Shown: positions 1,435-36,770 of the stretch, in pieces | How positions within the stretch are numbered: the stretch's first letter is position 1 | How the letters are laid out: each line of letters starts with the position of its first letter | Source of the DNA: Lingula anatina | Lineage: Eukaryota > Animalia > Brachiopoda | Direction: 5' to 3' | DNA length: 37,062 nt | Assembly: GCA_051362555.1 (NCBI GenBank) | Contig: JBPQGU010000012.1 | Location: forward strand, 1 to 37,062 | The notes under the pieces: model-generated | Seen by the model: only the letters and a program-made list of their open reading frames with translations | What the model was told of the DNA's origin: nothing | Database searches by the model: none | Position numbers and translations under genes: made by a program

Positions 1435-1771
1435 GTTTGGAAGTTACCTTAGATGCTATACCATTCAATGGGTACATCATGAATCCTGATAGCGGCATCA
1501 CACCAACAGTGGACCTTGAGTGCAATTAAACAGTGGATCCTGGCGCAGTACGTGACTTTTTCAAAGGAGAAACGGACGATAAAAACCAAATAGCAGTCAC
1601 ACAGGTTTCTGATGGAAGATTTGCCGCCAGAACTGACTTGATGGTTAGTCTCTGATCCATCATTCACGGTAACAATAGGCAAAGTAACATTGGCAGATTA
1701 GGGGAACAATATGTGTCAGGTTTCAGTCCCATTCAGTTATCCCGTGGTTACGACTTTGGCGCAGAACAAAT
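1435..1771 (+). pseudogene. Orphan V-exon pseudogene (copy psi1)
   Basis: GCAG|GTTTGGAAGTTACC = GLEVTLDAIPFNGYIMNPDSG...LECN*TVDPG. In-frame stops (TAA after the first Cys, GAT TAG GGG for DEG) and deletions. No leader, C or TM exon is found; the DNA after it matches the family's 3' flank. Confidence 0.85.
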
Positions 1772-3484
1772 GTAATATTAAAATAATATAAAACATGACA
1801 AAAAACGAAGATTATCATTCGGATAAATAAATTAGAAGAAATGTGGAGATGATTTTTTTTCAGTGTGAGTTTGTGTGTCTGTCTGTGTGTCTCTGTGTAT
1901 GTGGCGCTACGATAGATTTTTACATTCCATGACTTGTATTGCGTTTTTACATTATGATGAAAGACCTAAAACAGAAGAGAATGTTAATACTGCGACTATG
2001 TGTTGCTTCAATATCACTGTTAGAAGCTGTCTTAGATTCGTTCTTGTTATATAATGGCATTGAAAAAAAGCTGTAGTATTACTTAATTTGATCAAACGGA
2101 GAATTGATTTCTGAAGATATAAGTCATTGGCTGATGTATGGAGCGCCATTCACGCAAAAAATGCAGACGTCAACTCAACAATCTATCGGCACTTTTTAAC
2201 AGCCAAAACCTACTTTAACTATCTAAACTTAATTCTACTAAATTAGTTGTGGTCATTTTAATCATTCATCAAAATCTAACAATCAATAAACGATTCAAAA
2301 GTCAGTTACTGCAACTCAACAATCAGTCACCGCAACTCAACAATCAGTCACCGCAAATCAACAATCAGTCACTGCAACTCAACAATGTATTTTTGCGTGA
2401 ATGGCGTGAATCATGGTGCGCCATTCACGCAAAAAATGCAGATGTCGAATCAACAATCTACCGGCACTATTTAACAGCCAAAACCTACTTTAACTATCTC
2501 AACTTAATTCTACTAAATTAGTTGTGGTCATTTTAATCATTCGTCAAAATCTAACAATCAATAAACGATTCAAAAGTCAGTTACTGCAACTCAACAATGC
2601 ATTTTTTGCGTAAATGGCGCAATGCATGGTGCGCCATTCACGCAAAAAATGCAGACGTCAACTCAACAATCAGTTACCGTAACTCAACAATCAGTTGTCG
2701 CAAACGGTCATTCGCGGACTTAACACCAGATGGCGCGCGCGCACCGTTAGCGATCTTAAACGCCCTTGACCTTTTCCAGAGCACAGGCTTCAAACAACTG
2801 CACATGCGCGAAAAGTGCGGTGTTTGAAATAAACTAGTTGCAGTGAAAGCAAAGCCTGTCCGTGTTTACCGTCTAGTTGATTTTATTTCATTTGCTCTCT
2901 GGTGTCATTTTGCAAATTTATATCAGAAATGTTCTATTTATTTTATGTTCTAAAAAGTAAATCCGTCGGAATTCCCTAGAATAACATTTATTTTACCTTC
3001 ATTTTAAGTGGATTCCCATTATTTATAGTGTTATATCTGGCTCCAATGGGGATTTTCCACCCCTTCCCACTCTTGATTAATAAAATTCTTCATGTGCCAG
3101 ATTGAAAATGATATTGCAAAATAAATTCAAAATCGTAGGAATAGAAGGTTAATTGCCGATCATTCTGCGAGGACATTATTGTGCGAGGGCGAATTTGGCC
3201 ATTATAATTTTTTAAACTTCATCTTTGGAGCGCATTTTACTGTACTGCACATACTAAATCGTAGGAAGCTTTCACTCACTATCGTTCACTTACGCTCACT
3301 TACACAAGTAACCTTTCACTCTCACGATCGATCCCAGATTCCAATGTCTAAAACTACACTCGTAAGTGTGTGCGCCAGAAACCAAGTCAACCACAAGGAT
3401 AAATCAATGTAACGCTGCTATATTCAACAACTGACCAGTTAAACGATTTATTCGTTGACGCTTGGAAGCTACATATTCTAAGTG

Positions 3485-3632
3485 AAGTCTCCAACTCTTA
3501 ACTCGTCAGCTTCGTACTCCGTCGCTTCCAATCTCCTTCCTCGCTGCTTCCTTCTACATGTCTCCCGTAGGCTATATCTCTCAAGGTATGGCTTACGGAG
3601 TACGAAGCTGACGAGTTAAGAGTTGGAGGCTT
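3485..3632. mobile_element. MITE (~148 bp) with ~38-bp TIR
   Basis: AAGTCTCCAACTCTTAACTCGTCAGCTTCGTACTCCGT ... ACGGAGTACGAAGCTGACGAGTTAAGAGTTGGAGGCTT. Confidence 0.8.
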
Positions 3633-3633
3633 A

Positions 3634-3918
3634 CTCGGTCACAACCGGACGCACGAATTTCAGGACCGTACGTCCCCTGCGATTTTTGATTGTTGCGAAG
3701 GCCGTGGCAGTCGTAGAGGTAAAGGAAAGTCTGCCTTGCGAGTAGCAAGAGCCACATGAGATTTCCTTTCAAGCAGGGGCGCTAATTGCAAGGAATGATG
3801 GCCGTGGAAATTGTACTCAAATCTTGAGTTTGTCTTGCGTGGGACGTGAGATTCTGCGCAAAAATTGGACGCAAACAGCCCGTAAAAGCCCGTACGGCCG
3901 GTTGTGACCGAGGCTTTA
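3634..3918. mobile_element. MITE with ~22-bp TIR, left tip missing
   Basis: CTCGGTCACAACCGGACGCACG ... CGTACGGCCGGTTGTGACCGAGGCTTTA. Confidence 0.75.
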
Positions 3919-3980
3919 TATCATTCTTCCTTATCTACCTGTATGGTCCACGACGCAAACTTTAACTACCTGTGTAAAGT

Positions 3981-4200
3981 GTAAAGAAGGCACGGCAAAG
4001 ACTGTATATTTTAAGATCATTGAAATTTTTTACTGATAGCGTGCCTATTTTAGTCAATTTTTACAGGTGTGTAATTGAAAGCATTCTAGCGTACGGAATT
4101 ATAATATGGTATAGCGGAACAGCTGGGGAGAAAAGGAAGAAATTAGCAAACGTTGTAAAAACTGCAAGCAGGATTATCGGAAAGACTCTTTCCATCCTGC
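3981..4200 (+). mobile_element. LINE ORF2 C-terminal fragment (Rex1/Babar-like)
   Basis: VKKARQRLYILRSLK...LVNFYRCVIESILAYGIIIWY...KKLANVVKTASRIIG matches the conserved post-RT region of Rex1/Babar and related LINEs. Confidence 0.75.
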
Positions 4201-5939
4201 ATCATCTCTTTTTATTTTTTTATCAAGCAACAGTAGACTTTTAACTTTTAAAGGCAGTAAAAGCTTTTTAAACAGCTTTTATCCAAGTGCAGTGGCGCAT
4301 TTTAATTTGATCTCAAAACTAAATTCTTAATTTGTTTATTTATTGTATTATCTTATTATTTTACTCTGTATATTGCTCCAAATGGAAAATGATTTCCAAT
4401 TTTTATGATTTTTATAATTTTTTTACCTTGGCGTCATACACAGAGACCGCCGCATTACTCAAAAGTTACTTGACTACAAGACATTACGTCATACAGTACG
4501 ACTTCGTATGATCTTTATGTTGGACCCGACAGCATGTTTTAATTTTTGAAAGCGAAGCAATGGAACCAAACAATACGATGCAATATGTATTCTCATAAAA
4601 AATGCTATTTTTGAATAAAGACCATAGCATGGAGTACATCGAAATGCGACTTGGTTAATTATTACTATGATCTTCAATAATAGTTAATATTAAATATACT
4701 TTATAATAAGTTCTTGTTCCCGGCCTATTTACTAACTTAATTGATCTTTTTAGTATTTGTAGATTAAAAACACAAAAATTGTCTGGTTTCTTTTAGAGGA
4801 ACCACATATTGTTCGTGTGCTGGCTTTCACCAACTTGTTTATTTCAAACACCGCACTTTTCGCGCATGTGCAGTTGTTTGAAGCCTGTGCTCTGGAAAAG
4901 GTCAAGGGCGTTTAAGATCGCTGAAGGTGCGCGCGCGCCATCTGGTGTTAAGTCCGCGACAGATTGTTGATTTGCAGTAACTGATTGTTGATTTGCGGCG
5001 ACTGATTGTTGAGTTGCGGTGACTGATTGTTGAGTTGCAGTAACTGACTTTTGAATCGTGTTTTGATTGTTAGGTTTTGACGAATGATTAAAATGACCAA
5101 ATCTAATTTAGTAGAATTAAGTTTAGATAGTTAAAGTATGTTTTGGTTGTTAAAAAGTGCCGATAGATTGTTGAATTGACGTCTGCATTTTTTGCGTGAA
5201 TGGCGCTCCATACATCAGCTTTGGTTGTTAGCGTTTTACCTTATTTTTCTTTTGTATTTTGATTATCCATATATATTTATTAAGAGTAAATGGATGTTGC
5301 AGTTTGTTGACAATTGTATTTTAGATATTTAGAGTGAGAAAAAGCTAATTGATCTAAAGTTGATTTGAAGAGATTCAATCTTATATTAATTAAGTTGTCA
5401 GTTGTCTGCTTGCTCCTTATATTGTGTTTTATTCGATGGGTGGGGTGGGGTGGATGATAAGACAAACATTTTAAAGGTTTTGTCATGAAACAATACTAAA
5501 TTCATACATAGTTGTATATACCCATTAAAATTACCTAATTTATACCTTCTGTTAATAAAATCTATTGCAATATTGTGCAAACTTTAAAGTGTTGGGTTGT
5601 TTTTATGAAATCCTCTCTAATGAAATTGTGAAAATTCTCAACCATTTATGTTTTAATTTCTTAACACATTGAGAAAAATATCATAGCAATGGACAAACCA
5701 TGTGTACAAGCATTGCCAAAGATGTTGTATGTTAATACTACAGTCGCTTTTGCCAACAAACTGCGCCGACAGTTGTGTTAGCTGTGATCAGTTGATAATT
5801 TGATTGTCGATTACCCCGGGTACTGCTGACAACGTTATCTTAAGCCTTTCTTTGTAATGGAATAAAGTGGAATAACATATAGTAATTCGTTGCGGCTTCA
5901 TTTAAGCAAGGACTGCAAACGGCTACACCACGGAAGAAG

Positions 5940-6879
5940 ATGAAGACGTGTTTTTTTTTTTGTGCTGCTCTTTGTAACTCCAAATATTATTGAAGGTAGG
6001 GAGTGAATGAGTTCTAATGTACTTCAAAGTACGTAATTTGTCTTAATAAAAATCAGCTTAAACTGTGCCTAAACTAAAGGGAGGTCGCCACCCCAAATTA
6101 CACTTGTACTAAATGTGTATAGCTAAGATGACAGGCCAAAGTTATCCCTGTCTTAACCAAGATGGCAAATTTTAGATCAAACACAATGAGCGAACAAAAT
6201 ATCTCTTTTAGTAACTTTAAGGTATGATGCTACTTGCTCAGGAACTTTTCGTCTTGATAGGAAGGGATCACGTAATCACTTCCTGGTACGTATAAAAGCT
6301 GAACTGGTGATTGATACTAGTTTGATATTGTGGTTATGGCAAGATAAACTAGCACTTTTGTGTAACAGCCTGTGCAAACTTCCTCGACTAGTTTGTTTGA
6401 AATCCATAGTTCATTGCTAGCCCTCGCAAGAAAGAACAAGAAAACCTATCAGTGGACTACACAAGTAGCTGGAACTTCAAAATACAGTACGCCACAGATA
6501 TCACAGTCTTTTTTTTGAGTGCAATGGGAAATTGTGAATTGCCTTATTCGATGAAAAGAGTATGTTGCAAATCGCTTACCAAGTTTTTATTATATTACGA
6601 CATTCCTTTTTCATATACTACAGGTTTGGAAGTTACTTTGGTTGGTTTTCCTTCCAACTGGTCTTTCATGGATCCTGAATGTGGCATTTTATCAACAATG
6701 GGCCTTATGTTCAGTTACACAGTGGATCCCGGAGAGGTCGCACAGAATGCTACATTACACGAATATGGATTTCAAAGGAACTGCAACTCCTCAATTACTG
6801 TTCGTATCTACTCAGGTCGGTAGTCCTTAAATTCAATTTTGCATAAAAAACATAAAAGTACCACAAATGTGTCAAAAGC

Positions 6880-6926
<47 letters not shown>

Positions 6927-7950
6927 CGGGGTGTTTTGCAGTGAGATAAATGTTCTATAACTGTAGGTTGAGATGACTAACATATCAAAAAGGATTGATG
7001 GCATTGCTCTTATCAAACACTGAGTGGTGAATATATCCCGCAAGCCAGGAAAGGTATATTTTTCACAACATGTACAAGTGCAACTGAATCAGTAATTACT
7101 TGTCGTCAGATCAGACAGAATACGCAAACTTGTTAAGTTGTATGATAACATTGTCCATATTTTATGCTTAATTTTCTTTATTAAACATAAGCATTGTGTT
7201 CAAGTACAACGCCTGTACACTGTTTAATAGACTGAAGAAGGGGGTATTCAGAATACAGATAATTTATTTCCTCCCTTCTATCCTTTCTATAATGTGGCTC
7301 ACACCGTGCCGGTTAATCAATCTTTCTTTTTTTATTGCACCTCATTTGTCTGATGATAAAAATACTGTTTTTATCATTCTGGTTGAAAATTTATGTGTAA
7401 TGTGTTGCTGTCAATGTATACACTTTACATTAGTTAACAAAATTGAAAGTACGTAAAACGGGAATGAATACCTGCATATGTGTTGTATTACAGGTGCTGC
7501 TTGGAGGACATTTTCGATCATTGTGACCTTGCTAGCAACGTGTCTTTTATGCATGAATGGATACCTTGTATTCTGCAATCGGTCGTTGTCCAGGAAACTC
7601 AAATCACAAACATCTGAACATCATCATATTACAAAAAATGCGACAGCAAACGGAAACAACGGCAGAACTGTTTTCGACCGAATCCCTAGACCCCCGCAGT
7701 AGATCCATCCCCTGACTTTAGTGGCGGTTATGTGGTTTATGATTATGCTGTGCCGACGACTGGGTACAATAATCTTCGCCGAGATAATCGGGATAAACGT
7801 TTAGCTGAACCATATACTGAACTTGCAGGGAATATCTTGCCGGTGACTGCAGCTGATGGTTATGTTGCCTATAATTACATTACAATTAATGATGATACCC
7901 AGGTCCAGTTTAGCCAACTCAGTGCTCATGATGAGTGTATCATATATTGA
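5940..7950 (+). pseudogene. Internally deleted receptor copy psi2: leader 5940-5995, 5' half of V 6624-~6837, TM/tail exon 7494-7950
   Basis: Leader has +1 nt in a T11 run. V has the B-strand Cys replaced by Phe, frameshifts, and breaks off after a KFN-like motif. No C or stalk exons. TM exon is frameshifted near 7690-7700 but keeps YNNL-x12-YTEL and YNYI. Confidence 0.82.
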
Positions 7951-10805: not shown

Positions 10806-10860
10806 ATGAAGACGTGGTGTCTTTATGTGCTGATCTGTGTAGCTCCATATACAACTAAAG
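10806..10860 (+). CDS. Gene A exon 1, signal peptide MKTWCLYVLICVAPYTTK(G)
   Basis: ATG 10806, 55 nt, donor GTAGG at 10861. The same exon recurs at 5940, 26618, 35299 and 36511. Confidence 0.85.
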
Positions 10861-13800
10861 GTAGGAAGTAAACGTGTTGCAATGTACGCTGCTTCAAAGT
10901 ATATGAGTCATCTAAAAATTATTTCAGCTTATCCTTGGTCATAGATACCGGGGTATGCGTCCTCCTCAAACTCCCCTACTCGATTTATCAACAGAATGGT
11001 ATTTTCCTCATCAAAACAAAAAATGAACATAATAAATCTTTTGATAATTACCCTGCAAGGGGTATAAAGTAACTAAAAAAGCTTCATCTTGGCTGGGACG
11101 GGTCCCACCATTACTTCCTGGTATAAATGCTTAGCAGTCGATTGAATTAAGATGGATGTTGCAGAAATAAGGATAAACAGACATGACCTCATTTTACTGG
11201 CCCAACCTTGATAAAGTACCTAAGCTTACTATAACAATCCAATACCTGTCTCCGTTCAAACAAGAAAACAAATGCAAATAACTAGCATCTTAAGATTCAA
11301 ACCAATTGCTAGGATTGATACACAGAATTTTGTTCATTTTTATCAATCGTCACAGGCTTGAATGCTTCCCACGATAACATAAATATCTCTATTCTCTTTT
11401 GATAATATAGGTGGATTGCCATTTGCTACATTTGCCATTGAAATGAAAGATGTATATCCTTTTTTAGGGTTAGAAGTAACATTAGCTGGTTTGCCTGTCA
11501 ATGGATACGTCATGAATCCTGAGGGCGGCAACCCACAACCACTTAACCTTATGTGCAGTTACACAGTGGATCCCGGAGAGACGGCGTCGTATGTGGTTTT
11601 TTTCAGAGATGGAACTGACACAGCAAACCAAATAGTAGCTATACAGGTATCTGATGGAACTCCCAGGAAATTCAACAGCTATACCAATAGAGCTGATGTG
11701 ACGGCTTCAGGCTCTGATCCTTCATTCACGTTAACAATCGGTGGAGTCACCATGGCAGATGAGGGGAGCTATAGATGTCGTGTTAACACTGAATTCAATG
11801 TAGCCACCGTGACAACTGACGAGCAAATCCTTAGTTTACTCTGTAAGTAAATCACTGAAGTATTAGCATGTTCGATTTCTGTCCATAGAGAGGATGTATT
11901 GAAAGTTAAGGATGATTTAGAAGAAATAAGGGAGGAAATCATTACTAATTTAGTAGGCATGGACCAAAACCTTAAATATGGAAATAATATAGCGTTTACC
12001 ATTAGAGGTTGTGCGCCATCTTCTAGGTGTTATCACTTTCATTTCACCAGTAATCATATATAGCTGTAATTGTATGAATGGGTCATCTTAAAGACTCGTA
12101 CGAAATGTCGGCATGACTCTCATACTTCTTGAATGTTTCATGCGCACCGTCTGTTGTATTATGTTTAAGTTACATACATGTATGAAGCAAGCGTATGTTC
12201 CCTATAACGCATATTAACAATTTCGACTATTTTCTTATATGATTCAAAGAGAGTCGACATGACAAAGGATAAACTTAATTAATCACTTGGTCAGCCAAAG
12301 AAAAACTTTACAACTGCACTTCTAAAATATTTTGGTCGTAAACTTACTCTGTTTATCCGTGACTCCGGTTCGTAAAAGTCCACCAAATAAAGTAGTAATG
12401 TGTAGGGCATTATTTTTGCACAAACAATTACATTAATATTCAAATGATTATTGATGGAAACAACAAAGGGTTATATATACTGTAGCACAAACAGAAAGCA
12501 GAACATACTTCCTTAAATATCATATTCTGAATGTATTCGACGAAAACATTTGTTATATCTATGTTTTTGAAACCATATGGTTTCATTTGGTTTGGTTTAG
12601 TGGCAAAGATATGATTTCATATGTAACTTATAATTGTACTACTTTGTAGATCGACCAAACCCACCCCAGATTACACGAGGACCTGAAGTCGCTACAGGCA
12701 CCTACCGGGTATCTTGTTCCTCTGATGGCGGCAGACCAGCACCCGAGATAAAATGGTTTAAAATGCAGAGTTCTGATCAGATGCAGGTCAAGATGAATGA
12801 AACTTCGAACACGGTGACACCCCAGGGAGACACCTTTCTGGTCGAAAGTGCAGTAGAAGTGATGGCAACCCAGGCAGATCCAACTCAAGTATTTTGCCAA
12901 CTATTGCACGATTCTCTTACAAGTCAAACCAAGACAAGTGTTATAGTGCCTGAGAGTGCTGGTATATATATTTGGTTTGTGTATTTTACTCGGATTGGTA
13001 GTTTGTTCATTTCACTTCACTTGCGGACCAAAATAAGGTACTGGAAAAGCCTTAACTTTACCGCAAAGAGCTTATATCTTTGTTTGTAACATACTCTGTA
13101 AAACATTTTCAACACTATTCCTGTGCGTGCTCGTTTTACTGCTTATCTGAATCATTCTTCTTGGCTCGTGGATGTACATGAGGTACAATTATTATCACGT
13201 ATCTTAAGAAGTGACTGAATATCTTTTTTAGCTCCTTCAACTACCACTACTATGAAATCAACTAATCATGCAGGTAGGTACAATTTATGATGCATTTATT
13301 TTTCTTAATTGCTTCATTTTAAAACTATTTGTCCTGATAAAAAAGAATGGACGTATTAAGTCCCCCATTCATTTCTCATGCCTTATCCGGTTTTACCTAT
13401 TTACATGGAATGCACATCCGTACATTTATTATATGTTTATCTACTTGGGCGTAGAATTAAAAGTAAAATAAAATGTACACTTTTGAAATAATCCAAAGTC
13501 TAATTCTTACGTTAAGAACTATATAAAAACCCCTGAAATATAAGTGCCTGACGTCGGTTGATATTTTTGAAATATACAAGATGACATAGCTTTCTAAATA
13601 ACTGGTGAGTAATTTAGAAACAAATCAAACTAAAATCGAATGAAACCCCGATTCCAATTGCCGTCAATGATTTGTTAGTAAGTGAAAATTGTCGTTTTCA
13701 GAGGAAAAGTCAATTTGGCAGGTAAACGCCGAAAAGAGTGCCTTAAACATTAAGTTTTAAATGTAAATATCCTTCAAAAAGTGAACCAAAAAGCCTTTCA

Positions 13801-16800
13801 ACTCTTGAAAGTTGGCAATATTTAAAATAATATAGTCACATTGATCTATGAGACTTCCGATACCAAAAATATACTCCAACACTCACTCGTTCATATTTTA
13901 TTTTATTTTATTGCTCCACATTTCTGCATTATTTCTTTGCAATGGGATCGACAAGCCCCCAGTGATGCAAGGATTATAATTAGTTTTCTCTCGGCACGTT
14001 GTCGATTGAATAACACAGCACAAAAACAAATCTTTCCGATTTTTCAGCCTCCGCGGAATGACGTCGGAACAGTGCAAGCTGGCCTTTACAACGCGCGACT
14101 GAATGACGTTTTTCCGCGCAGGAGTACCCCTTTCTCTTTTACACGGCCTTTCAACAGGCGTAATCTCGTTCGTCTTTCTTCGCGACTGAACAACGTTTTT
14201 CCGCCTTGGTATTATGTGACGGTCGTTATTGGATTGTGACTGACATTTAAGAACATGAGATTTCAATGGAACTGAAAGATTTATATTGTTAATTCATTTC
14301 AAAATTCCATTTTATTATCTTAGGTGCGCTACATGTATATACTGTCGAAAGGCGTGATCATCCCGATCATTAGAACATCTCTCCTGAGGAAGCTTCCCCC
14401 GAGGGCTTATCATATTTTGTTATTCATCATTTCATTTCTCTTAAATTAATACAGATTGCTTAGAAGCGATATCAAAGTCTATATTTAAAGCATGATCATT
14501 ATTTCCATAAAATTGCAATGAATTATAATGAATAAGACTTGGTCAAAGGCCATTCTGTTTGATTATTAAAAGTTTGGCCGCGGCCTTGGATATGCAACTC
14601 TGGTTGCAGCAACATACCTGACTAGCATTTAACTTGTCGCTTGTACTATAGAAATTGTTAATCACACTTGCGCTTACAATCTGGATTTTATAGGATACGT
14701 TTTAAGGTGTCTCCGGAGTAAAAATCATTTCAGTGAAATCATGATACACAGTCAGTGTATTTTTTTTTTCAATTAATAAGGTGTATTAATAAAGATTCCT
14801 TAGTCGATCGCGATATAGACTGCGGCAGTTTAAATAGATCTTAAGTTTATTACACTAATGACGTAGTGCTTATGCATTGAATCAGCGTGTGCAGTGGTGC
14901 AACCAATCTTTAATTAATAAGGGAGTTGGAAGAACCAGCGGGTGACCGTTAAACGTTCTAATATTTAATCAACACTGAGCGGAGAACAAACAAAAAAGGA
15001 TAAAGATGTGTCACACTATGCGCTGGTGGCGGGGAAATTTCAACAAAGCCCGACTAACAACAATGTACGTCACGGTCTCCTTCAATATTTCATCCAGCTA
15101 AAAGACGAAAACAAAAATACTTTAATACCAATGTTGACTGGAGATGCATTAGAATTTTTTTGATGAATAAGTGTTGCCCCACAACTGATCGTAGTACATC
15201 CCACGATAAGATTTCGCTCGATAGACCATGTCTAGAACCATAAGTAAACCATTAGTTCTAAACTAGCTGTCATAAAAAACCTTGCTTGAAAAACTGAATA
15301 ACTATAAGACCATTGTTATTTTGCAAGGTTAAGCAGCGATAAATATGTTGATATATAGCAAACATTATCAGTATGATGTGCCGTAATACGTATATAACAG
15401 GAGTACTTTTCTATTGATGATCATATCTTGCTCATAGTGGGTGACGAAGAGGAGGTGGTTAAACCACGTAAGTGAAGAATCACTGCACATTAAACGTACA
15501 TCGTGTATCACTTTTACACGGCTTCTGCTAATGAAAATGTATCATATCGCAATATACTGATTTCTTCATAGAAATTCATTTTTCACATGAAAATAAGTAA
15601 ATCGCCGGCTATTTTGTTTATAAGTTCTGGACTTTGACAGAGAAGGACAGGCCTGCTTTAGATGACAGCCGGATTCGGTTGTATTTGTATGGGGATTGCT
15701 ACCAGTAATTAACACAGTTTTCACACGAAGTACCATTGAAACACGATGGTCGAGAGATGACTTATGAGCTGAGGTCAATATAACAAGCAGCATGGTGGCC
15801 AATAAGCTATTTAATCTTTTATGTAACCTCTCTCCAAACGCGGTGATGAAGGCTTAAACCAAGTGTTTTGGTTTCTCACTTCTTTGTTTAAGCACAGTCC
15901 CCCCCCCTCTTTTTTTCAGGACTCTGCAGCTGATGAAGGTCACTTGTTGACCGAAAAGCGCTTTCTGCAACCAGTCCAACCCCCCTTTTTTTTCGTTTCC
16001 CCAGCCGCACTGTGTGTATCTCGTACAGTCGGCCTTCAGGTCAAACACATACAGAGGCCAGACACCTCTCTCACATCATACCGAAGTGAAACAACAGCCG
16101 ATAATATTGAATACGGCAATAAATAGTTATCTAACATAATTCGAATCAGAATTATAAGACGGACACGTGCACGTTCTATCACCGTTGTCATCTCTTCACA
16201 AACACGTGATAACGCATCTAAGGGACTTTTATACTTCAATCTAAACTCTAACGTCCCAAATTTAAAAACAATCTCAAAGCTTTTAACCAGGGGCGCTGTC
16301 AAAACACACGTCCCTAGGGGCCCAGACCTGGATCGTGTTATTTTAATAATAATAATAATAATTTATTCAGCTTTGAATGTTACAATTTAACATTGTTTGC
16401 TGTCTAGTCTACTACAGGATCTACCATATTGTACTTACATAAAAAGAGAGAAAGTGATATTTCATCGTGTTGCTAACTGTATATACTGTGATAATGCTTT
16501 TAGTGATTTCTGATCTTGAGGGTTGAGGAGGATGAATAGTTTCTGATCACTGCCTGCTAATTCATAATTTTGTCTCACAGTGTTTGGGAGGGAACTGAGC
16601 ATATTTTGTCGCTCTATTTGGTATTTACTACATGTGAGGAAGAAATGTTTCTCATCCTCTATTTCCGTTTTACAGCTTGTGCAGGTTCTTTGTTCCAGGG
16701 TGATTTTCATGTGCCTGCCTTTCTCTATCGCTAGCTCGTGGTCACTAATTCTCATTTTGGCTAAGTATTTTTTGTCTGAGCTTGTGGCGTTCATTTTTAA

Positions 16801-24872: not shown

Positions 24873-24963
24873 GGCCACACTTTTTTATTTTTATGGATGA
24901 CATCCTCTGGGGACCCCAAAATGGGTGCGAGCGGGCGAAAAAAAAAAAAAAAAAAAAACAGTC

Positions 24964-24996
<33 letters not shown>

Positions 24997-26617: not shown

Positions 26618-26672
26618 ATGAAGACGTGGTGTGTTTATGTGCTGCTGTTTGTAACTCCATATACAACTGAAG
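26618..26672 (+). CDS. Gene B exon 1, signal peptide MKTWCVYVLLFVTPYTTE(G)
   Basis: 55 nt, donor GTAGG, homologous to gene A exon 1. Confidence 0.82.
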
Positions 26673-29600
26673 GTAGGGACTAAGCATGATATTCTATACT
26701 TTAAAATAATTTAATAGTCTTGAAGATTCGTCAGCTTAACCTCCGCATAAACAACAGGATGATCGCTTCTATAGACCCCCCACGTGGCGCGTTTTCAAAA
26801 GATAAAGAACAAAAACAACTTCACACGCCATTTTAAACAAGATGATGACAATTTCTAACATTTACGATAAAAAAAAATTATTATGGCTCTTTAGGTTATA
26901 TTATGAGGCCAATCGTAAAAAATACTTCCTTCATAGTAGGAGTACTACGCACCCAATAGAAGTTTTTGATGCCACTAGGGAGGTCAGGTCACACCGCTCA
27001 CGCAGTCGAAAACGGGAAGAAATCTAACCTCGCTGTTTGTTTTCCATCATTACTTCCAGGATTTGGGTCCTATGATAAATATGAAAGTATATTTAAAAAG
27101 TGCATTGAATGGGCTTTCGAACAATATGTGTAACAATGTATCATGTCTCTGTTGTTAGCCTCCAGCCACGAAAATGCTGCGAGAAATCGCCGGTGATTTC
27201 ACTTCCTCGTTTGGTACCCACTATTAAAGAATTTTGCTCAACCTGCGCGTTTCGCGCCATTTTTCTAAAATAAAAGCTCCGTACGGCGTCCCGGATGTTA
27301 TTTCGTCGTATTTGGCCACATATTCATGCAGAGAATGATCCAACCGTTCGACTGAGGGGTTACAGAAGTTGATTTAACCGAAAACAGCAACCACAACTAG
27401 CTTGTAAAGTTTTTAATCGTGTTTTACAGTTAGAGTAACGAAGTTCTGAAAATTCTGTTACCCCTACCTAGATAATTAAACTAATTCTTGGTTCAATTTA
27501 GTTATCTATTTATCATTTTTTGGTAAGACAGAGCCGTAACAGCCGTTAGAAAATCAGTGACTTTGATCTTACGGCAAACAAAATGGCGAACGCACCAAGC
27601 TGTTCTGCTGATGAAAAAGCAACTGTACTTTCAGCACCCAAAGAGGATCAACATATCAGAATATCTAATCAGAAAATCTTTGAATTGTTCACGAAACCCA
27701 ATGATATTGATAAAACGTCTGCAATTCAAGAATATAGAGTTTATTTTATTTTTCAAACAAAGTATGAAATTACGTACGATATTGATGGGGCTAACTCGTT
27801 AGTGAACATAAAAAGGGGAATCTTAAAATCATGGAGATATGCAATAACTCTAGAATGGTTAATGAAAGTCGAACAAAAGTGAACAAAAGAAGTATTTATT
27901 TATTTTTTCTTAACACACACAAAAAAAGAAAAAAAAAAAGAAAAAAAGAAAGAAAATTCCTAAAACTCTCTCCAAAAAATCTCGCTGGTTTTTGTATTAC
28001 CTACCTGCTATGATGTCCAATATCAATTAATTTTTTTTTTTTGCAAAATTATAACTTACCAAAATCGGATATTATTTATTTTCATTGTGCATTCTGGCAT
28101 TTTTACTAGTTAAACCTTAAAATCGTATATGCAATTGTCATTGTAATATTGGTTGCCATGGCAACAGTGACAGAGTATTTGTTTACTATTTAACTTAAAT
28201 TCATAAACTGAGTACCAAGAGTGTTTCCCACTTCATATTCAGTTTAAAAATTCATGATAATGTGTAAAAAATAATTCAAACTGTTACCATAGCAACAGCT
28301 ATCATAATGACAATTTCTATAGCAACAGATACATTAGAAACTATTATTTTTTATTTTAATTACGGCACGTTATTTAGCATCATTTTCATCCAAAAGTAGC
28401 CTTTGGGCAGTGATGTTGAAGCCTTAGGATGAAAAAAAAAAAAAAGTATCGACCGCTATTGATATTTAGCAATGGTTGCCATGGAAATAATGGATAAATT
28501 ACAGAAAATTGTATCTTGTCAGATTCTTCTTGGCATAGTGTAACTTTCCAGAAAATTTCAAATGGATATTTTATTCCATTCAAAAGTTATGCCAATTTTG
28601 TTTAATTGATTGGGCAATTAGGTGACACTTTTGGCTTCCACTGTTACAAATGCTTGCATACAAGACTTTTTCAAAATTTTGTGGCTGACTAGCATTCTTG
28701 AAAATTTGATAACTTTTGATTGGCTTGCTTGATTTTCAAAAAATAAAATGTTTTGGAAAGCTCATAAATTGCTTTATCAGATAATATCATTTTGGCTGAT
28801 ATTTATGTTACTATCAAAGTTGACCTGACCTCCCTTATGCCATAGTGGTATGATAAGGCAAGAAGAATAACATGACCTTTTACCTTTCTGCGCCTATTTG
28901 TGTAAATTTTGCTAACTAATTATCAATTATGCAGGTATACAGTATTATTGACTACAGTCCAACGCCTGTCAACACAATGCACCAACACAATAGGTTAACT
29001 TGCAACTTTCCATCTTAATCCGACTGCAATGATTGATACACCTCAAATACTGGTGTGACACTCACCACTGAAATGAACACTCTCAGATACATGGATACAA
29101 ATTGGATAATTGAGAGATTTCTTGCTAGACGTTTCCTGGGGTTTTTGATGAGTATAGTAATTCTATGTGCTTATACCATAGGTTTAGAGGTAACATTAGC
29201 TGATTTGCCGACCCATGGGTACGTCATGAATCCTGAGAGCGGCAACCCACAACCGTTAAACCTTGTGTGCAGTTACACAGTGGATCCCGGAGAGACAGCG
29301 CAGTACGTCGTATTCTACAAAGATGGAACGGGCACTGCAAACCAAATAGCAGGAATAGAAGTTTCTACTGGATATGCCATGAAGCAGAACGAATATAATA
29401 CGAGATCTGACGTGACGGTTACAGTCTCTGATCCATCATTCACTTTAACAATTGTTACAGTCACTCTGGCAGATGAGGGTAATTTTTACTGCAAAGTTTC
29501 CGCCCCATTCAATAATCCCGTTTTTACGACTCCAGTCCAGGCCCTCAAATTACTGTGTAAGTAAAAGTCGGTGCAATATTCATGCTAATAAAAACTTTTG

Positions 29601-32259
29601 TAATTGCTTTGTCTTTTACTAAATAATATTCCTCAAACCAAAAAATAGAACTTAAAACGTTCACATGGGGTAGTTTCACAAATTGTTGAGCTTTACGATA
29701 ATTTTCTTTTATGTTATAATTTATGATTTGCAGATCGGCCGAACCCGCCCCAGATTACAAGAGGACCTCAAGTCGCCACAGATACCTACCGGGTAACTTG
29801 TTCCTCTGATGGCGGAAGACCAGCACCTGAGATAAAGTGGTTTAAAATGCAAAGTTCTAACCAGATGCAGGTCAAGATGAATGAAACCTCGAACACGGTG
29901 ACACCCCAGGGAGACACCTTTCTGGTGGAAAGTGAAGTAGAAGTGATGGCAACCCAAGCAGATCCAGTTGAAGTTTTTTGCCAACTACTGCACGATTCTC
30001 TTACAAGTCAAACCAAAACAAGTGTTATAGTGCCGGGGAGTGCTGGTATGTATATTTGGTTCGTGTATTTTACTCGGATTGGTAGTTTGATCATTTCATT
30101 TCACTTGAGAACAAAAAATAAAGAGCTGGAAAAACCTAAACTTTACCGCAAAGAGCTTATATCTTTATTTGTAACATACTCTGTAAAACATATTTCAACA
30201 CTATACCTGTGCGTGCTCATTTTACTGCTTTTCTAAATCATTCTTCTTGGCTTGTGGATGTGCATGAGGTACATTTATTATTTCTTATCTTTAGAAGTGA
30301 CTGAATTCCCTTTTTAGCTCCTTCAACTACCACTACTGTGAAATCCACTAATGCAGGTAGGTACAATTTATGTTGGATTTATTTTTCTTAATTGCTTATT
30401 TTAAAACTATTTGTCCTGATAAAAAAGAATGGACGTGTTAAGTCCCCCATTCATTTCTTATACCTTATCCTGTTTGACCTATTTACATGGACTGCACATC
30501 CATACATTTATTATATGCACATCTACTTGGGCCGTAGAGATATATTTTAGATAAAATGTACACTTATGAATTATTTCCAATGTTTAATACAGACGTTAAG
30601 AACTATAATAAAAACTCCCTAAAATAGAAGTGCCTGACGTCGGTTGTTATTTTTGAAATATACAAGAAGTTATTTAGAAACAAATCGATTCCAATTGCCG
30701 TCAATGATTTGTTTGTAAGTTAAAATTGTCATTTTCAAAAGTCAATTTGGCAGGTAAACGCCGAATAGAGTGCCTTAAACATTACGTTTTTAAGGTAAAA
30801 TATCCTTCAAAAAGTGGACCAAAAAGCCTGGTAACTCTTAGAAGTTTGCAATATTTAAAATGATATAGTCACATTGATCTATGACAGTTCTGATACCAAA
30901 AATATACTCCAACACTCACTAGTTCTCGTTTTATTCTATTGCTCCAAATTTCTGCATTATTTGTCTTTGCAAGGGAATCGACAAGCCCAAAGTAGTCGAT
31001 TGAATAATAAGTGCCTCTTTATGTTTTTTCAGCTCTCTCAACTAGCAGCGTTGCCGTATCTACAGCAGGTAGGTGCAGTTCGGAGTAAATTGTTTTCGTT
31101 TGCTTCAAAATATGATAAATTTTTTTTAACCCAACCATTAGGTACGCGTTGGTTTAAGTCAATTCTCACGCTTTATCTGGCATAGCCAATTGGAAGATCA
31201 TACAGGTTTACATTCAACCACAACCTTTCCAGTTGTAATACAAACAATCTTAGTCAGTTTAGGTGACGCTTATTATTTTTCAGGGAATATACTTGGTTAC
31301 ATATTTATTTATTCATTTATAGTCTGTTTTGTATTTCTCTTATATCACATTTGCAGTGTCTCCAACTACAACAACATGTAATTAAACCAAGAGCACTGCG
31401 GAACACAAACTGAGGTGTACAGTACTCAGTACCTGTTGGTTGAAGGGGTGGGCGGGGTGGGGGCTTTGGTAACCGACCGTGAACTTCTACTTGATAATCC
31501 TCTTTGTACTGGGACACTCTCATACGGTTAACCATGCTTCGGTATCATAAACGTGAACGTGGCACATCATAAGACATTCCGGGTTGATATTTTACAGTTG
31601 AGCTACCAATGTGTATATTATGTTTCAGTTGAAAAAAGTCAGATAACTTCTACTCGATAATCTGTATCCATCACCCTCTCTTCTTGGTACTGGGACACTC
31701 TCATCCGACTAACTATGCTTCTGTACCATCCTTATAAATTAATGTGAACGTTGTAGATCATTAGACATTCCGGGTGAATATTTTAGTGTGGTCGTACCAA
31801 TGGGTATATTATGTTTCAGTTAACAAAAATCAGAAAGGATTATACTTGGCAACCCATTTAAATTATATCTTTTGTATTTCAGGCATTGATGGGGGAACAG
31901 TATCAATCATTGTGGTATCGTTGTTAGCAATGTGCCTTTTTTGCATAATTGCATACCTTGTATTCCGCACTCGGTCATTGTCCAGGAGACTCAAATCACA
32001 AGCTTCTGAACAGCAACATGGCAGTGTTATTACAAACACTGTTAACAGTCCATTCAATGTCCAAGTATCTATGAATCGCGCGACAGATCATTCCTCTGGT
32101 TTTGATGAGGTTCATGTTGACTATGACGATACTGCATTGGCGAATAGTTACGAAGAACTTCGGCGGGATAACCGTTCAGATGGGCAATACATGGAACTTG
32201 GAGAGAACCTATTGCCGTCTACCGCCACAAATGGTATTGGTGACTATAATTACATTTAA
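26618..32259 (+). CDS. Ig-superfamily type I membrane receptor gene B (SP-V-C-stalk-TM-ITAM-like tail), 7 exons, 404 aa
   Basis: Exons 26618-26672, 29182-29556, 29734-30045, 30318-30356, 31033-31068, 31357-31377, 31883-32259. Total 1215 nt, open frame, GT-AG phase-1 introns. Confidence 0.88.
26977..28835. mobile_element. 1.86-kb non-autonomous TIR element (Kolobok-like) in gene B intron 1
   Basis: 15-bp TIR AGGGAGGTCAGGTCA / TGACCTGACCTCCCT and internal GTTGCCATGGCAAC-type palindromes (28152, 28283, 28475). It accounts for intron 1 being 2.5 kb in B versus 0.6 kb in A. TSD is degenerate. Confidence 0.72.
29182..29556 (+). CDS. Gene B exon 2, V-set Ig domain
   Basis: 375 nt like gene A. LVC...FTLTI...DEGNFYC. 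ATAG acceptor, GTAAGT donor. Confidence 0.92.
29734..30045 (+). CDS. Gene B exon 3, C-type Ig domain
   Basis: 312 nt; 96 of 104 aa identical to gene A C exon. Confidence 0.9.
30318..31377 (+). CDS. Gene B stalk micro-exons 30318-30356 (APSTTTTVKSTNA), 31033-31068 (ALSTSSVAVSTA), 31357-31377 (VSPTTTT)
   Basis: AG/GT-bounded, lengths 39/36/21 nt, collinear with gene A. Confidence 0.72.
31883..32259 (+). CDS. Gene B last exon: TM helix and ITAM-like tail
   Basis: TTTCAG acceptor. VSIIVVSLLAMCLFCIIAYLVF, YEELRRDNRSDGQYMEL, YNYI*. Eight aa shorter than A in the proximal tail. Confidence 0.88.
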
Positions 32260-34006: not shown

Positions 34007-34833
34007 AGGATTCCCCATAGGGGAATACTATTGTTTTTGGTAGTATTATTATTCTTTCCGCGCGTTTTTTTTTCGCAAAAAATCTGAAATAATTATCATA
34101 GGTAGCCTATGGTCAGAATATGCCACAGAACCAGTTTCAGTGACCTTGACCTACTTTTCAAGGTCACAGGGGCTTTTAAAGGCAAACATTGTAAAATTTG
34201 AAATTGCCATTAGGCCTAAAGTATAAGCCATATGGCTAAGAGCCTTATGGCCAGTGATACTGAGGTAAATCCACAGATAATGACCTACTTTTATGCAAGT
34301 AGGTCAAGGTCAAGGTCGCTAATGAGCAAGCGGGCTCAAAAAAGGTTTGTTTCCGAGATCTCAAGAACCGGAAGGCCCAGAGCCCCAATCATAGTGGCAA
34401 ATGATGCCCTATATATATATCTAAGGTTAGCCGTACTTTGGTAGCGACTGCTTAATTACTTTTTTAATATAGATTTTTAAATATTTATGACATTGCAGAA
34501 ATCTTGAGTTTGGCAATTTCTCCATGAAACACTGGTTTTTGGTCATAGCATGCTATAGTAAACTACCCCAAACATATACCCCAAACCCCCAAATCAAATG
34601 TCAAATTTGACCTTGACCCTCATTTTCAAGGTCATTTGGCTATTTCATGGAGAATTATTGACGTGGGCTAAAAGTGATGTTTTGTTGATCCCCCCCCCCC
34701 AATTCGCACATGCTCTTTCAGAATATGGGATCAAATTTAACCCGTGACCTTCACATGACCTTGTAAGAGCATTTCCACGCCTATTTTGCAGGGGAATCCT
34801 TCGCCACTGGCTTTAGCCAGTTGCAGTCTAGTT
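34007..34833 (+). mobile_element. HINE/Helentron-like element
   Basis: subTIR AGGATTCCCC ... GGGGAATCCT, 3' hairpin ACTGGCT-TT-AGCCAGT then CTAGTT, internal TGACCTTGACC/AAGGTCA repeats. Empty site TTCTACCATTAGTTTTTT at ~10377-10394. Confidence 0.8.
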
Positions 34834-35298
34834 AGTTTTTAATTCCTTGCGAAAATATAAAAATAAGTGTTTTACAAAGGTTGCATTTTAACAGAACTGA
34901 CTTTAAATGCAGTTATGCTAAAACGCACTGTAAATACACAAAAGTTTATTACGCTTAGCATACAGTGTTGGACTTAGTTTTATGAATGCACCATGCAAAG
35001 AAATTGTGAATATTCTGGGTATTTTTTTTTTTTTTTGCTATGTGTTAATAATATTTGCACTCTCTTAACATATTTCGTAAAATAGCACAGCAATGATCAA
35101 CCCTTCACAACTAAGAAATCCCATGATGCTGTAATTTATACATCATCACTTTCTGTACCGACAGTTAATTGTGTTAGTTGCACTGCGGTGCCATTTTGCG
35201 TATAGGGTAGCAGTGGGGACGTAATTTTTAACTCTCAATAGAAAAGTGACTGCAGCTTATTGATGTATGAACAACGAAAAGTAACACAAAGGGGGATC

Positions 35299-36023
35299 AT
35301 GAAGGAGTGGTGTCTTTATGTGCTGCTCTGTGCAGCTCCATATTCAACTAAAGGTAGGAAGTAAAAGTGATGCTCTTTACGGTGCTTCAAAGTATGTTAG
35401 CCATACTAAAATAGTTCAGCTTGTCCTAGTCCGAGACAATAGATACCTGGGGGATGCGTCCCCCTCGAATCCCACGACTTGATGTATCAACAGAATGGTA
35501 CATTCTTCATCGAAACAAAAATTGAACTTAATGACTCGTTTTCTAATTACCCTGTAAGAGTTATGAATAAAAAAAAAGCTGCATTTTGGCAGGGAGGGGT
35601 CCCATAATTACTTATTGGTATAAATGCTTAGCAATCGATTGAGTTAAGATAGAGGTCATTGCAGAAAATAACATAAACAGACATGACCTCATTTTACTGG
35701 TCTGACATTGATCAAGTTTCTAAACTATAGTGATATCAGATCAATACCTTCCTCTGTTCAAACAAGAACACAAACGCAAAGAAAACGCATTTTAAGAACA
35801 AAATGAAGACTCTAGGCACAATTGGGAATGATACACCGTGATTTTTGTCAATCGTCACAGGCTACACACTGCCCAAGAATGCATTTATATCTCGTTTCTT
35901 TCCTTTTCCTGTTACCCTTGTTTGGGGTAAGAAGTAACATTAGCTGGCTTGCCTTCCAAATGGTTACGTCATGAACCCTGAGGGAGGTACCCCACAACCA
36001 TTAAACCTTGTGTGTAGTTACAC
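35299..36023 (+). pseudogene. A-type copy psi3: intact leader 35299-35353 plus truncated V (~35925-36023)
   Basis: MKEWCLYVLLCAAPYSTK(G). Intron aligns with gene A intron 1. The V acceptor is lost, there is an early TAA and a frameshift, and homology stops after ...CSYT. Confidence 0.85.
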
Positions 36024-36510
36024 CTACAAGGGGTGTCTGAAATAAAATCAGTCGCACCTCTTTGTAGAACTCTTGCACAGCCCCTATTAACCGTTAGAGT
36101 TTAGCTGATATGCGCCCAGGTAACAGAGAAAATTAAGAAACTGAAAATGACATTTCATCCCCGTTGTAATAGAAAGAATAATTATCTATATTAAACGTGT
36201 ACTCCACAGCCAGGGTTGGATTGACTTCCTGAAAACCCGCCTCATGAAATTGTGAATACTATGCTTTTTTCTATTTATTGTGTTTCAATATTATTTGCCT
36301 TTTCTTAATCATATTTCAGAAAACAGAATAATATTGATCAGCCCCTAAGTACAGAAATTAACCGATGTGGTAATTTTTCTAGCATAACGTTCTGTATACC
36401 ACAGGTTAATTGTATTAGGATCTACTTTGTTGATTATCAGGCAGCAACGGAGATGTTATATTTAACTCCCAAAAAAAAAGTACCCGAGGCTAGGGGCAAC
36501 ACGCAGGAAG

Positions 36511-36770
36511 ATGCAGGCGGACGTGGTGTATTTATGTGTTGCTTTTTGTAACTCCATATTCATCTGATGGTGGGAACTAAATGTGCCTTTCTGTCCTTTA
36601 AAATAATTTAATGGTTTGAAGATTTGTCGGCCTTATGTTCAGCTACACAGTGGATCCCGGAGAGGTCGCGCAGAATGCTACATTACACGAATATGGATTT
36701 CAAAGGAACTGCAACTCCTCAATTACTGTTCGTATCTACTCAGGTCGGTAGTCCTTAAATTCAATTTTTC
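36511..36770 (+). pseudogene. Chimeric copy psi4: B-type frameshifted leader (36511-36569) joined at ~36629 to a psi2-type V fragment
   Basis: 36310-36628 aligns with 26392-26737; 36629-37062 aligns with 6701-7140. The leader is 59 nt (+4). Confidence 0.8.

What the first reader, a model, noticed from the sequence alone, without database searches (positions are those of the whole stretch)
1435..36770. Tandem array of V-C Ig receptors with a built-in ITAM-like tail: candidate diversified immune or allorecognition receptor family
Seen: two intact genes and four decayed copies, all on the + strand, with domain-per-exon phase-1 structure SP/V/C/stalk/TM-tail. Established: V plus C1-like membrane proteins (nectin/CTX, B7/butyrophilin, SIRP) are the architecture proposed as ancestral to TCR/BCR, and clustered IgSF genes with tyrosine motifs and many pseudogenes are typical of immune and allorecognition loci (e.g. 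Hydractinia Alr, fish NITR). Inference: this is a lineage-specific activating receptor family under birth-and-death evolution, probably in an invertebrate. I do not recognise it as a named family. The ORF track hides it because the exons are scattered.
Basis: partly seen in the sequence, partly recalled or inferred. Interest (0 to 1): 0.9.

Follow-up and report, generated by a model that had tools for sequence, protein, structure and literature searches.

The report
Brachiopod Ig receptors with activating tails
In the lamp shell Lingula, a tandem cluster holds two intact and four broken genes for cell-surface proteins with antibody-like outer domains and an activation-type tyrosine motif in the tail; they are likely innate immune receptors, and their sister genes carry similar outer domains on predicted non-signalling anchors.

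Summary
Observation confirmed. Two intact six-exon genes (A 10806-22803, B 26618-32259; all GT-AG, all phase 1) encode leader, V-set Ig, B7/CADM-type C domain, stalk, TM and a tail with YEEL-x9-YMEL. Four broken copies flank them; none has a C exon, and one keeps an intact leader. The organism is Lingula anatina: two RefSeq models match gene A at about 97% and 95% and repeat all five of its junctions. RefSeq holds about nine family genes, with three anchor types: ITAM-type tail, PDZ-type tail, GPI-like end. Each V class occurs on both a signalling and a non-signalling anchor. V variation clusters on the GFCC'C'' face (p=0.0009), and a diverged copy keeps 5 of 5 tail tyrosines. Against: spacer 9 misses the strict ITAM (6-8), there is no ITIM partner, V dN/dS is 0.53, and I have no RNA, tissue, polymorphism or Syk data. 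Best reading (50%): activating innate receptors in a CEACAM-like receptor/decoy family, evolved convergently. Nothing supports allorecognition or TCR-type rearrangement. New variant of a known kind; interest 0.55.

The parts
10806..10860 (+). Gene A exon 1, leader peptide
   Evidence: ATG, hydrophobic core, GT donor, phase 1; identical to the start of RefSeq XP_023930103
11468..11842 (+). Gene A exon 2, V-set Ig domain
   Evidence: Pfam V-set E 1.4e-8; model pLDDT 72.6 with A, B, C, C', C'', D, E, F, G strands; best VIA Z 13.3, rmsd 2.1 over 110 residues, top rows antibody/TCR/CD8 V-type chains
12650..12961 (+). Gene A exon 3, CD80-like (C1-like) Ig domain
   Evidence: Pfam PF08205 E 6.9e-9; the paralogous C domain of P0009 matches ICOSL, CADM3 and butyrophilin models at TM 0.78-0.80
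13232..13273 (+). Gene A exon 4, Ser/Thr-rich stalk
   Evidence: GT-AG, phase 1; junction repeated in XP_013390914
21552..21587 (+). Gene A exon 5, stalk
   Evidence: GT-AG, phase 1; junction across the 8.3-kb intron repeated in XP_013390914
22403..22803 (+). Gene A exon 6, TM helix and 105-aa tail, stop
   Evidence: hydropathy peak 3.0 at residue 282, no charged TM residue, five tail tyrosines
22693..22743 (+). Gene A ITAM-type motif YEEL-x9-YMEL
   Evidence: shuffle p 0.008
26618..26672 (+). Gene B exon 1, leader
29182..29556 (+). Gene B exon 2, V-set Ig domain (66% identical to V of A)
   Evidence: Pfam V-set E 5.1e-7
29734..30045 (+). Gene B exon 3, CD80-like Ig domain
   Evidence: Pfam PF08205 E 5.1e-10
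30318..30356 (+). Gene B exon 4, stalk
31033..31068 (+). Gene B exon 5, stalk
31883..32259 (+). Gene B exon 6, TM and 97-aa tail; YEEL-x9-YMEL at 32149-32199
   Evidence: shuffle p 0.007
1435..1775 (+). Broken copy 1: V exon with in-frame stops and deletions; no C exon follows
   Evidence: 69% nt identity to V of B; lesions seen
5940..7950 (+). Broken copy 2: frameshifted leader (5940-5996), truncated V lacking the first Cys (6624-6830), TM-tail exon with a frameshift (7494-7950) that keeps YxxL-x12-YxxL
35299..36023 (+). Copy 3: intact leader (35299-35353) and a broken V (35926-36023: lost acceptor, frameshift, cut off)
   Evidence: leader matches XP_013384541 at 19 of 19 residues
36505..36750 (+). 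Broken copy 4: leader without in-frame ATG fused to a V fragment; 36629-37062 is a 95% duplicate of 6701-7140
16462..19266 (-). LINE reverse-transcriptase ORF (934 aa) inside intron 4 of gene A; not part of the receptor
   Evidence: Pfam RVT_1 E 2e-42

Best explanation
Genes A and B encode single-pass V plus C1-like Ig membrane proteins with a conserved two-tyrosine ITAM-type tail, and they are likely activating innate receptors of Lingula phagocytic cells. Shown: gene structure, domains, motif, family make-up and where V varies. Inferred: (1) the exposed GFCC'C'' face of V binds a foreign ligand, most plausibly a microbial adhesin that also targets the family's GPI-like or PDZ-tailed surface members; (2) clustering lets a Src-family kinase phosphorylate both YxxL tyrosines; (3) a Syk or Shark kinase docks and drives uptake and immune gene induction, as shown for oyster CgIgR; (4) unequal crossover and conversion in the tandem array pair a homogenised tail module with different V modules and leave broken copies. 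The logic would resemble the vertebrate CEACAM family, arrived at convergently.
For: Motif in both genes, p about 0.007-0.008 by shuffle. It is intact in 2 RefSeq proteins (P0009, P0010) and half kept in P0001. The diverged broken copy keeps 5 of 5 tyrosines against 22 of 53 other residues. The spacer fits the ITAM definitions used for Hydractinia Alr (x6-9) and oyster CgIgR (x6-12, Syk co-precipitated). V variation across 12 domains is higher on the GFCC'C'' face (entropy 0.93 vs 0.56, permutation p 0.0009; A vs B 26 of 42 changes there, p 0.013); the strand assignment agrees with the later model. C is under purifying selection (dN/dS 0.13) while V is more relaxed (0.53). A and B are unalignable in the 5' introns but 95-98% identical from intron 5 to the 3' UTR. 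Each V class has a signalling and a non-signalling form: V of A is 86% identical to the PDZ-tailed P0004; V of P0009 is 83-85% to the hydrophobic-ended P0008 and P0002; the first V of P0001 is 85% to GPI-like P0012. RefSeq models repeat all five junctions of gene A.
Against: No RNA, tissue, induction or population data were obtained. The motif fails the strict ITAM (spacer 6-8) and has no acidic residue at -3. No ITIM-bearing partner among the six intact tails examined. V dN/dS between A and B is 0.53, not above 1. The CEACAM hallmark of V much more alike than C is not met: A vs P0004 V 86%, C 83%, and 11 of 66 unit pairs have V at least as alike as C. The mosaic test for V of B was borderline (p 0.02-0.23 in 4 protein triplets, 0.07-0.14 in 3 DNA triplets). 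Syk in Lingula is not shown. YxxL motifs can also be plain endocytic signals. P0001 may be a fused gene model.
Confidence: 0.5

Rival explanations
1. Self-recognition receptors: V of A or B binds the V of a sister protein (GPI-like or PDZ-tailed) on another cell, and the ITAM-type tail reports the contact. This would serve clearance of damaged self cells, gamete contact or self/non-self discrimination, as in Alr, SLAM or nectin-type pairs.
For: Receptor and potential ligand sit in one family with 83-88% identical V domains. The variable face is also the face that nectin/JAM-type V domains use to pair (own knowledge). The best solved-structure sequence hits include nectins, JAM, SYG-1 and B7-H3. 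Alr has ITAM-bearing members in a V-set cluster.
Against: Lingula is solitary, with no known fusion or rejection reaction (own knowledge). Gene A differs from its RefSeq counterpart at only 4 of about 124 V residues, far from allodeterminant-level divergence, though this is one comparison and may involve a paralogue.
Confidence: 0.25
2. An ordinary expanded adhesion family (B7/CADM/JAM-like). The tail tyrosines are endocytic or adaptor-binding sorting signals rather than an ITAM, and the broken copies reflect the general gene-family turnover of Lingula.
For: Spacer 9 and no acidic -3 residue. Tail dN/dS against the broken copy is about 0.6. RefSeq names are CADM/CD80/A33-like. The Lingula genome has many expanded families (PMC4595640 passages).
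Against: Paired YxxL with conserved leucines across copies down to 49% identity. Face-biased V variation and many broken copies are atypical of conserved adhesion genes. No conserved orthologue outside Lingula.
Confidence: 0.2
3. A somatically diversified antigen-receptor-like locus, in which C-less broken V exons act as conversion donors with the help of Lingula's AID/APOBEC-like deaminases.
For: All four broken copies keep V sequence but lack C. V of B looks partly mosaic. L. anatina has AID/APOBEC-like genes (PMC5956068 passages).
Against: No J-like motif in 14 of 14 V domains and no RSS-like site in the window. The broken V copies are only about 60-90% identical to the intact V exons across sliding windows. 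Decay after tandem duplication explains them simply.
Confidence: 0.05

Closest known systems
Oyster CgIgR (Crassostrea gigas; PMC6994640, passages read)
   Same: Lophotrochozoan Ig membrane protein with a YxxL-x8-YxxL tail. It binds bacteria, recruits CgSyk and promotes haemocyte phagocytosis.
   Different: Five Ig domains, described as a single gene. Here there is a two-domain V plus C1-like unit in a tandem family with three anchor types. No homology was tested or seen.
Vertebrate CEACAM paired and decoy receptors (CEACAM1/3/5/6; PMC5112662, PMC11646289, passages read)
   Same: One tandem family mixing ITAM-like, GPI-linked and other TM members over similar N-terminal V domains, with variation on the CC'C''FG face, pseudogenes and concerted evolution.
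   Different: No ITIM member found. All copies lie on one strand, whereas CEACAM pairs are inverted. V is not selectively homogenised over C. TM and tail are one exon. Convergent, not orthologous.
Hydractinia Alr family (bioRxiv 10.1101/2022.03.04.482883, passages read)
   Same: Clustered V-set IgSF genes, one domain per exon, pseudogenes, ITAMs defined with spacer 6-9, loss of the V-set Trp.
   Different: Alr V lacks the Cys pair (kept here), is followed by I-set and Fn3-like domains, includes ITIM members and acts in a colonial allorecognition reaction.
B7 / butyrophilin / CADM-nectin V-C1-like ectodomains, and sponge SAML/RTK (PMC11926128, passages read)
   Same: V followed by a CD80-like constant domain; the Atlas model of the paralogue's C domain matches ICOSL, CADM3 and BTN at TM 0.78-0.80; 8OVQ and 8QPX are among the sequence hits of V.
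   Different: Those are ligands or adhesion molecules, mostly without an ITAM. Sequence identity is low, with no orthology shown.
Botryllus FF/FcoR (PMC12582321, passages read)
   Same: Invertebrate IgSF multigene clusters with tyrosine motifs and copy-number variation.
   Different: Receptor and signalling co-receptor are separate paired genes with ITIM/hemITAM; here the motif is built into the V-C chain.

Membership tests
V-set Ig domain | Pfam PF07686 above the gathering score | tested here: met
   35.3 and 30.3 bits vs 26
V-set Ig domain | Nine-strand V frame including C'' | tested here: met
   Model of V of A, pLDDT 72.6, strands at 2-6, 25-32, 41-46, 54-59, 64-66, 77-82, 85-90, 99-108, 111-121; VIA Z 12-13 to antibody/TCR/CD8 V
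V-set Ig domain | Cys23, Cys104, Arg75, Leu89, Asp98, Tyr102 | tested here: met
   All present in A; B has Phe for Tyr102
V-set Ig domain | Trp41 | tested here: not met
   0 of 14 V domains contain any Trp; Phe at that position in A and B
C1-set Ig domain | Pfam PF07654 match | tested here: not met
   Not listed at E up to 0.1; PF08205 CD80-like C2-set is met instead
C1-set Ig domain | C1 topology with a D strand | tested here: inconclusive
   Own V-C model unusable (pLDDT 47.5). The Atlas model of paralogue P0009 matches B7/CADM/BTN constant domains at TM 0.78-0.80, and its top feature hit is a C1-set cluster at 0.93. A CxLLHxxL motif is present in 11 of 12 C domains; its likeness to C1 is recalled.
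ITAM | YxxL/I-x6-8-YxxL/I (strict) | tested here: not met
   Spacer 9 in A, B, P0009 and P0010
ITAM | YxxL/I-x6-9 (Alr paper) or x6-12 (oyster paper) | tested here: met
ITAM | Acidic residue three before the first Tyr | tested here: not met
   Ala at -3
ITAM | Phosphorylation and binding by a Syk/Shark tandem SH2 | not testable with these tools
   A Lingula Syk gene was not located; papers and supplements read show Syk in oyster and annelids but not in Lingula
CEACAM-type paired/decoy system (functional analogy) | ITAM-like and GPI-linked members sharing similar V | tested here: met
   GPI is inferred from a shared hydrophobic C-terminus without a tail, and no GPI predictor was run
CEACAM-type paired/decoy system (functional analogy) | ITIM-bearing inhibitory partner | tested here: not met
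   No ITIM in the tails of A, B, P0001, P0009, P0010, P0004 or P0007; one ITIM-like hexamer only in broken copy 2; the family list may be incomplete
CEACAM-type paired/decoy system (functional analogy) | V exon selectively homogenised by gene conversion | tested here: inconclusive
   Protein level only: A/P0004 V 86% vs C 83%; 11 of 66 pairs have V at least as alike as C; no DNA for the partner gene
Hydractinia Alr / allorecognition | V lacking the Cys pair, I-set and Fn3-like domains | tested here: not met
   Cys pair present; second domain CD80-like; short Ser/Thr stalk
Hydractinia Alr / allorecognition | Extreme allelic polymorphism | not testable with these tools
   One comparison only: 12 substitutions and 1 indel in 370 residues between gene A and its RefSeq counterpart
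TCR/BCR-type antigen receptor | J-like FGxG motif and RSS-flanked segments | tested here: not met
   0 of 14 V domains have the motif; no RSS-like site on either strand with my pattern
Nectin/CADM | Three Ig domains and a C-terminal PDZ-binding end | tested here: not met
   A and B have two Ig domains and end in YNYI; only paralogue P0004/P0007 ends in T-T-V (class I PDZ consensus recalled)

The most novel reading that the evidence does not exclude
A solitary brachiopod has independently built a CEACAM-like pathogen receptor/decoy system from B7/nectin-type V-C1-like modules. Junctional (PDZ) and GPI surface proteins are exploited by microbes, while ITAM-tailed mimics such as genes A and B on phagocytes capture those microbes through Syk. 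The V modules are swapped onto the tail by recombination, and gene content differs between animals (gene B has no RefSeq counterpart in my searches). It would be a living protostome example of the proposed step from junctional V-C1 adhesion molecule to activating immune receptor.
Probability: 0.25. Interest if true: 0.8.

Novelty: new variant of a known kind. Interest (0 to 1): 0.55.

Why it matters
ITAM-bearing Ig receptors are known in oyster, Hydractinia and Botryllus. A tandem V plus C1-like family that spreads similar binding domains over activating, GPI-like and PDZ-type anchors was not found described for any brachiopod in my searches. If it works as inferred, paired-receptor and decoy logic arose in lophotrochozoans on the same domain pair that vertebrates use in B7, nectin and antigen receptors. 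It gives concrete clones for testing the idea that immune receptors arise from pathogen-exploited adhesion molecules. The current RefSeq annotation splits gene A in two and appears to miss gene B, which explains why the family is overlooked.

Tried and rejected
No whole genome was held, so copy number rests on RefSeq proteins. No sequencing runs were obtained, so junction reads, expression and polymorphism remain open. The AlphaFold model of the V-C paralogue P0004 on a 7-row alignment had pLDDT 47.5 with the C domain under 50; it and its Foldseek result were discarded. Positive selection on V was not found (dN/dS 0.53). Recombination tests on V were borderline. The test for decoy-type V homogenisation gave no outlier. 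An RSS scan found none. The tail-profile search among proteins of 336-2000 aa found only P0009 and P0001, so no unrelated ectodomain carrying this tail was found; only the top 7,994 candidates were scored. The tail of A shows no BLASTP match to the PDZ-type tail of P0007 at E up to 100. Searches for Lingula Syk in two papers' supplements (1 file; 3 files) found nothing; spreadsheets not held may contain it. The review PMC10073891 was not held. No complex prediction was sent, because V-V pairs tend to pass by likeness to antibody structures. Searches of earlier findings by place, sequence and 'brachiopod Lingula' words were empty. ITAM-type tails also occur in 12 of 90 TM-bearing proteins among the 147 new representative hits (unnamed, not followed up), so the motif is not rare among Ig receptors.


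Full report
Observation. I read the whole window and mapped the exons by self-comparison and splice signals. Gene A has six exons from 10806 to 22803 and gives 406 aa. Gene B has six exons from 26618 to 32259 and gives 397 aa. All 10 introns are GT-AG and phase 1. Each protein has a leader, a V-set domain and a CD80-like domain (Pfam, both above cut-off), a Ser/Thr stalk, one TM helix without a charged residue, and a tail of 105 or 97 aa with five tyrosines, including YEEL-x9-YMEL. Four broken copies lie at 1435-1775, 5940-7950, 35299-36023 and 36505-36750. Only two C exons exist in the window, so none of the broken copies has one.

Organism and gene models. All 4 hits of V of A and all 7 hits of C of B are Lingula anatina RefSeq proteins. 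The window's GC is 36.05%; the chromosome-level L. anatina assembly reports 36.5% (PMC13121700 passages). Two models on one 154-kb scaffold together cover gene A: XP_023930103 (P0011) differs at 4 of 179 residues, and XP_013390914 (P0010) at 8 of 191 plus one indel. Between them they repeat all five junctions of gene A, including the one across the 8.3-kb intron that holds a LINE. These are predicted models, not reads. No protein was flagged as the window's own, so the window probably comes from another assembly or haplotype (inference). Gene B has no close counterpart: its V is at most 69% identical to the RefSeq V domains and its C at most 85% over full length. The searches were limited by length, so this could be an annotation gap or real presence/absence.

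The family. RefSeq holds 11 loci on three scaffolds, about nine genes once the split gene A and a near-identical pair (P0012/P0158, 3 differences in 291 residues) are merged. Three anchors occur. ITAM-type TM tail: P0009, P0010, and P0001, whose second half-motif is broken. A different TM with a short tail ending T-T-V: P0004/P0007, with no BLASTP match to the ITAM tail. A hydrophobic end without a tail, shared by P0002, P0012 and P0158 and similar in kind in P0104: predicted GPI; the end of P0008 may be intron read-through. P0003 is incomplete. V domains fall into classes 36-69% identical to each other, and each class appears on both a signalling and a non-signalling anchor. V of A is 86% identical to P0004; V of P0009 is 83-85% to P0008 and P0002; the first V of P0001 is 85% to P0012. 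P0001 could be a fused model; its leader is the intact one at 35299. A phmmer scan of 1.84 billion representatives with P0004 listed 150 hits. Those covering the whole V-C unit at over 40% identity were all Lingula. Most others match a generic stretch of multi-Ig proteins. Of the 10 new hits I looked up, 3 were Lingula (P0011, P0012, P0104) and 7 came from fish, a tunicate, a nematode and a limpet, the limpet protein at 26%. The family therefore looks lineage-specific, within the limit that other brachiopod proteomes may be missing.

Domains. The AlphaFold model of V of A (pLDDT 72.6) has the nine-strand V frame with C''. It matches antibody, TCR, CD8 and CEACAM7 V-type chains at Z 12-13.3, rmsd 2.0-2.8 (Foldseek agrees). 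The canonical Trp is absent from 14 of 14 V domains and there is no J-like motif. The C domain gets no Pfam C1-set hit. The Atlas model of paralogue P0009 matches ICOSL, CADM3 and butyrophilin constant domains at TM 0.78-0.80, with a C1-set cluster as top feature hit (0.93); the whole protein's top hit is a chordate V plus C1-set cluster (0.92). 'C1-like, B7/CADM type' is fair; strict C1 is unproven because my own V-C model failed.

Evolution. Between A and B the introns around V are no more alike than unrelated controls (42-52% vs 42-43%). The C region is about 90% identical, and intron 5 to the 3' UTR 95-98%. The tail module was therefore homogenised recently, while the V modules are old. 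dN/dS is 0.53 for V (dS 0.52), 0.13 for C and 0.87 for TM-tail (only 19 changes). Across 12 V domains (P0001's first V and the truncated last V of P0003 left out), variation is higher on the GFCC'C'' face (0.93 vs 0.56 bits, p 0.0009). The strands were assigned from sequence and later agreed with the model. Against a decoy-type history: V is not selectively more alike than C, and mosaic tests are borderline.

The motif. A YxxL/I pair with spacer 6-9 arises in 0.7-0.8% of tail shuffles. The broken tail of copy 2, 49% identical overall, keeps both YxxL halves with spacer 12, and 5 of 5 tyrosines against 22 of 53 other residues. The motif fails the strict vertebrate consensus (x6-8, acidic -3; consensus as quoted in PMC5112662). 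It fits those used for Hydractinia Alr (x6-9) and oyster CgIgR (x6-12), and CgIgR co-precipitates with oyster Syk and promotes phagocytosis. Syk is reported in molluscs and annelids. I could not show it in Lingula.

Mechanism. Most likely (0.5), A and B are germline activating receptors on phagocytes. Ligand binding by the V front face clusters them, Src-family phosphorylation of the two tyrosines recruits Syk or Shark, and uptake follows. The ligand is most plausibly a microbial adhesin aimed at the family's GPI-like or PDZ-tailed members. All of these steps are inferred; only anatomy, conservation and variation pattern are shown. Rivals: recognition of sister proteins on self cells (0.25), plain adhesion with sorting tyrosines (0.2), somatic diversification (0.05).

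Comparison and novelty. It works like oyster CgIgR in signalling and like the CEACAM family in family design (passages of PMC5112662 and PMC11646289). It is a member of neither, nor of Alr, nectin/CADM or TCR/BCR (see membership tests). V plus C1 tandems outside vertebrates already have a precedent in sponge SAML/RTK (PMC11926128 passages), and clustered tyrosine-motif Ig receptors in Botryllus (PMC12582321 and PMC12065747 passages). Ten literature searches, one of them for six RefSeq identifiers with 0 papers, showed no description of this family in their listings. Subscription papers are not covered, and I recall (from memory, unread) a 2018 survey of Lingula immune genes that might mention it. 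All papers were read as term-matched passages only (also PMC5978004, 10.1101/046789, PMC4595640, PMC5956068, PMC11999971); supplements were searched for PMC5978004 and PMC13121700. An earlier scan note on another genome (e1-7857005) describes a similar tyrosine-motif Ig cluster; it is unchecked and only suggests that such clusters recur.

Verdict. The feature is real and well built, and apparently undescribed. Its immune role is plausible but untested. New variant of a known kind, interest 0.55.

Noticed in passing
window 2130-5219: A 3.1-kb element with long inverted arms (257 nt at 95%) built from 21-nt repeats, like a non-autonomous terminal-repeat transposon; it holds a 38-bp hairpin at 3485-3632.
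   Followed up: partly
window 3978-4244 (+): 88-aa frame with a Pfam ALKBH8_N match (E 1e-7), probably the end of a decayed retroelement ORF.
   Followed up: partly
window 16462-19266 (-): LINE reverse-transcriptase ORF, open for 934 codons, in intron 4 of gene A, so a recent insertion; absent from the matching intron of gene B.
   Followed up: partly
window 21876-21896 and about 31358-31378: Possible 21-nt phase-1 Ser/Thr mini-exon in intron 5 of both genes, not used in the RefSeq model; stalk exons are alternatively used in RefSeq isoforms of P0001.
   Followed up: no
window 21803-21900 and 31284-31381: An AG followed by a short hydrophobic open frame and a stop in intron 5; it could be an alternative tail-less anchor exon, or AT-rich intron chance.
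   Followed up: no
window 35299-35353: Intact leader matching RefSeq XP_013384541, whose model joins it to a different V class; suggests a leader captured by a downstream gene beyond the window.
   Followed up: partly
window 36246-37062: Chimeric junction: B-type promoter and leader (75% to 26366-26735) joined directly to a 95% copy of 6701-7140, a sign of unequal crossover.
   Followed up: partly
P0104 (XP_013384547): A 28%-identical, Trp-retaining V-C paralogue with a GPI-like end on the same 656-kb scaffold, a likely old outgroup of the cluster.
   Followed up: partly
P0076 (Lottia gigantea XP_009055571): Limpet Ig membrane protein with a tyrosine-rich tail, 26% identical over the V-C region; a possible distant relative.
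   Followed up: no
window 24873-25949 and 28133-28315: Further inverted-repeat elements between gene A and gene B and in intron 1 of B.
   Followed up: no
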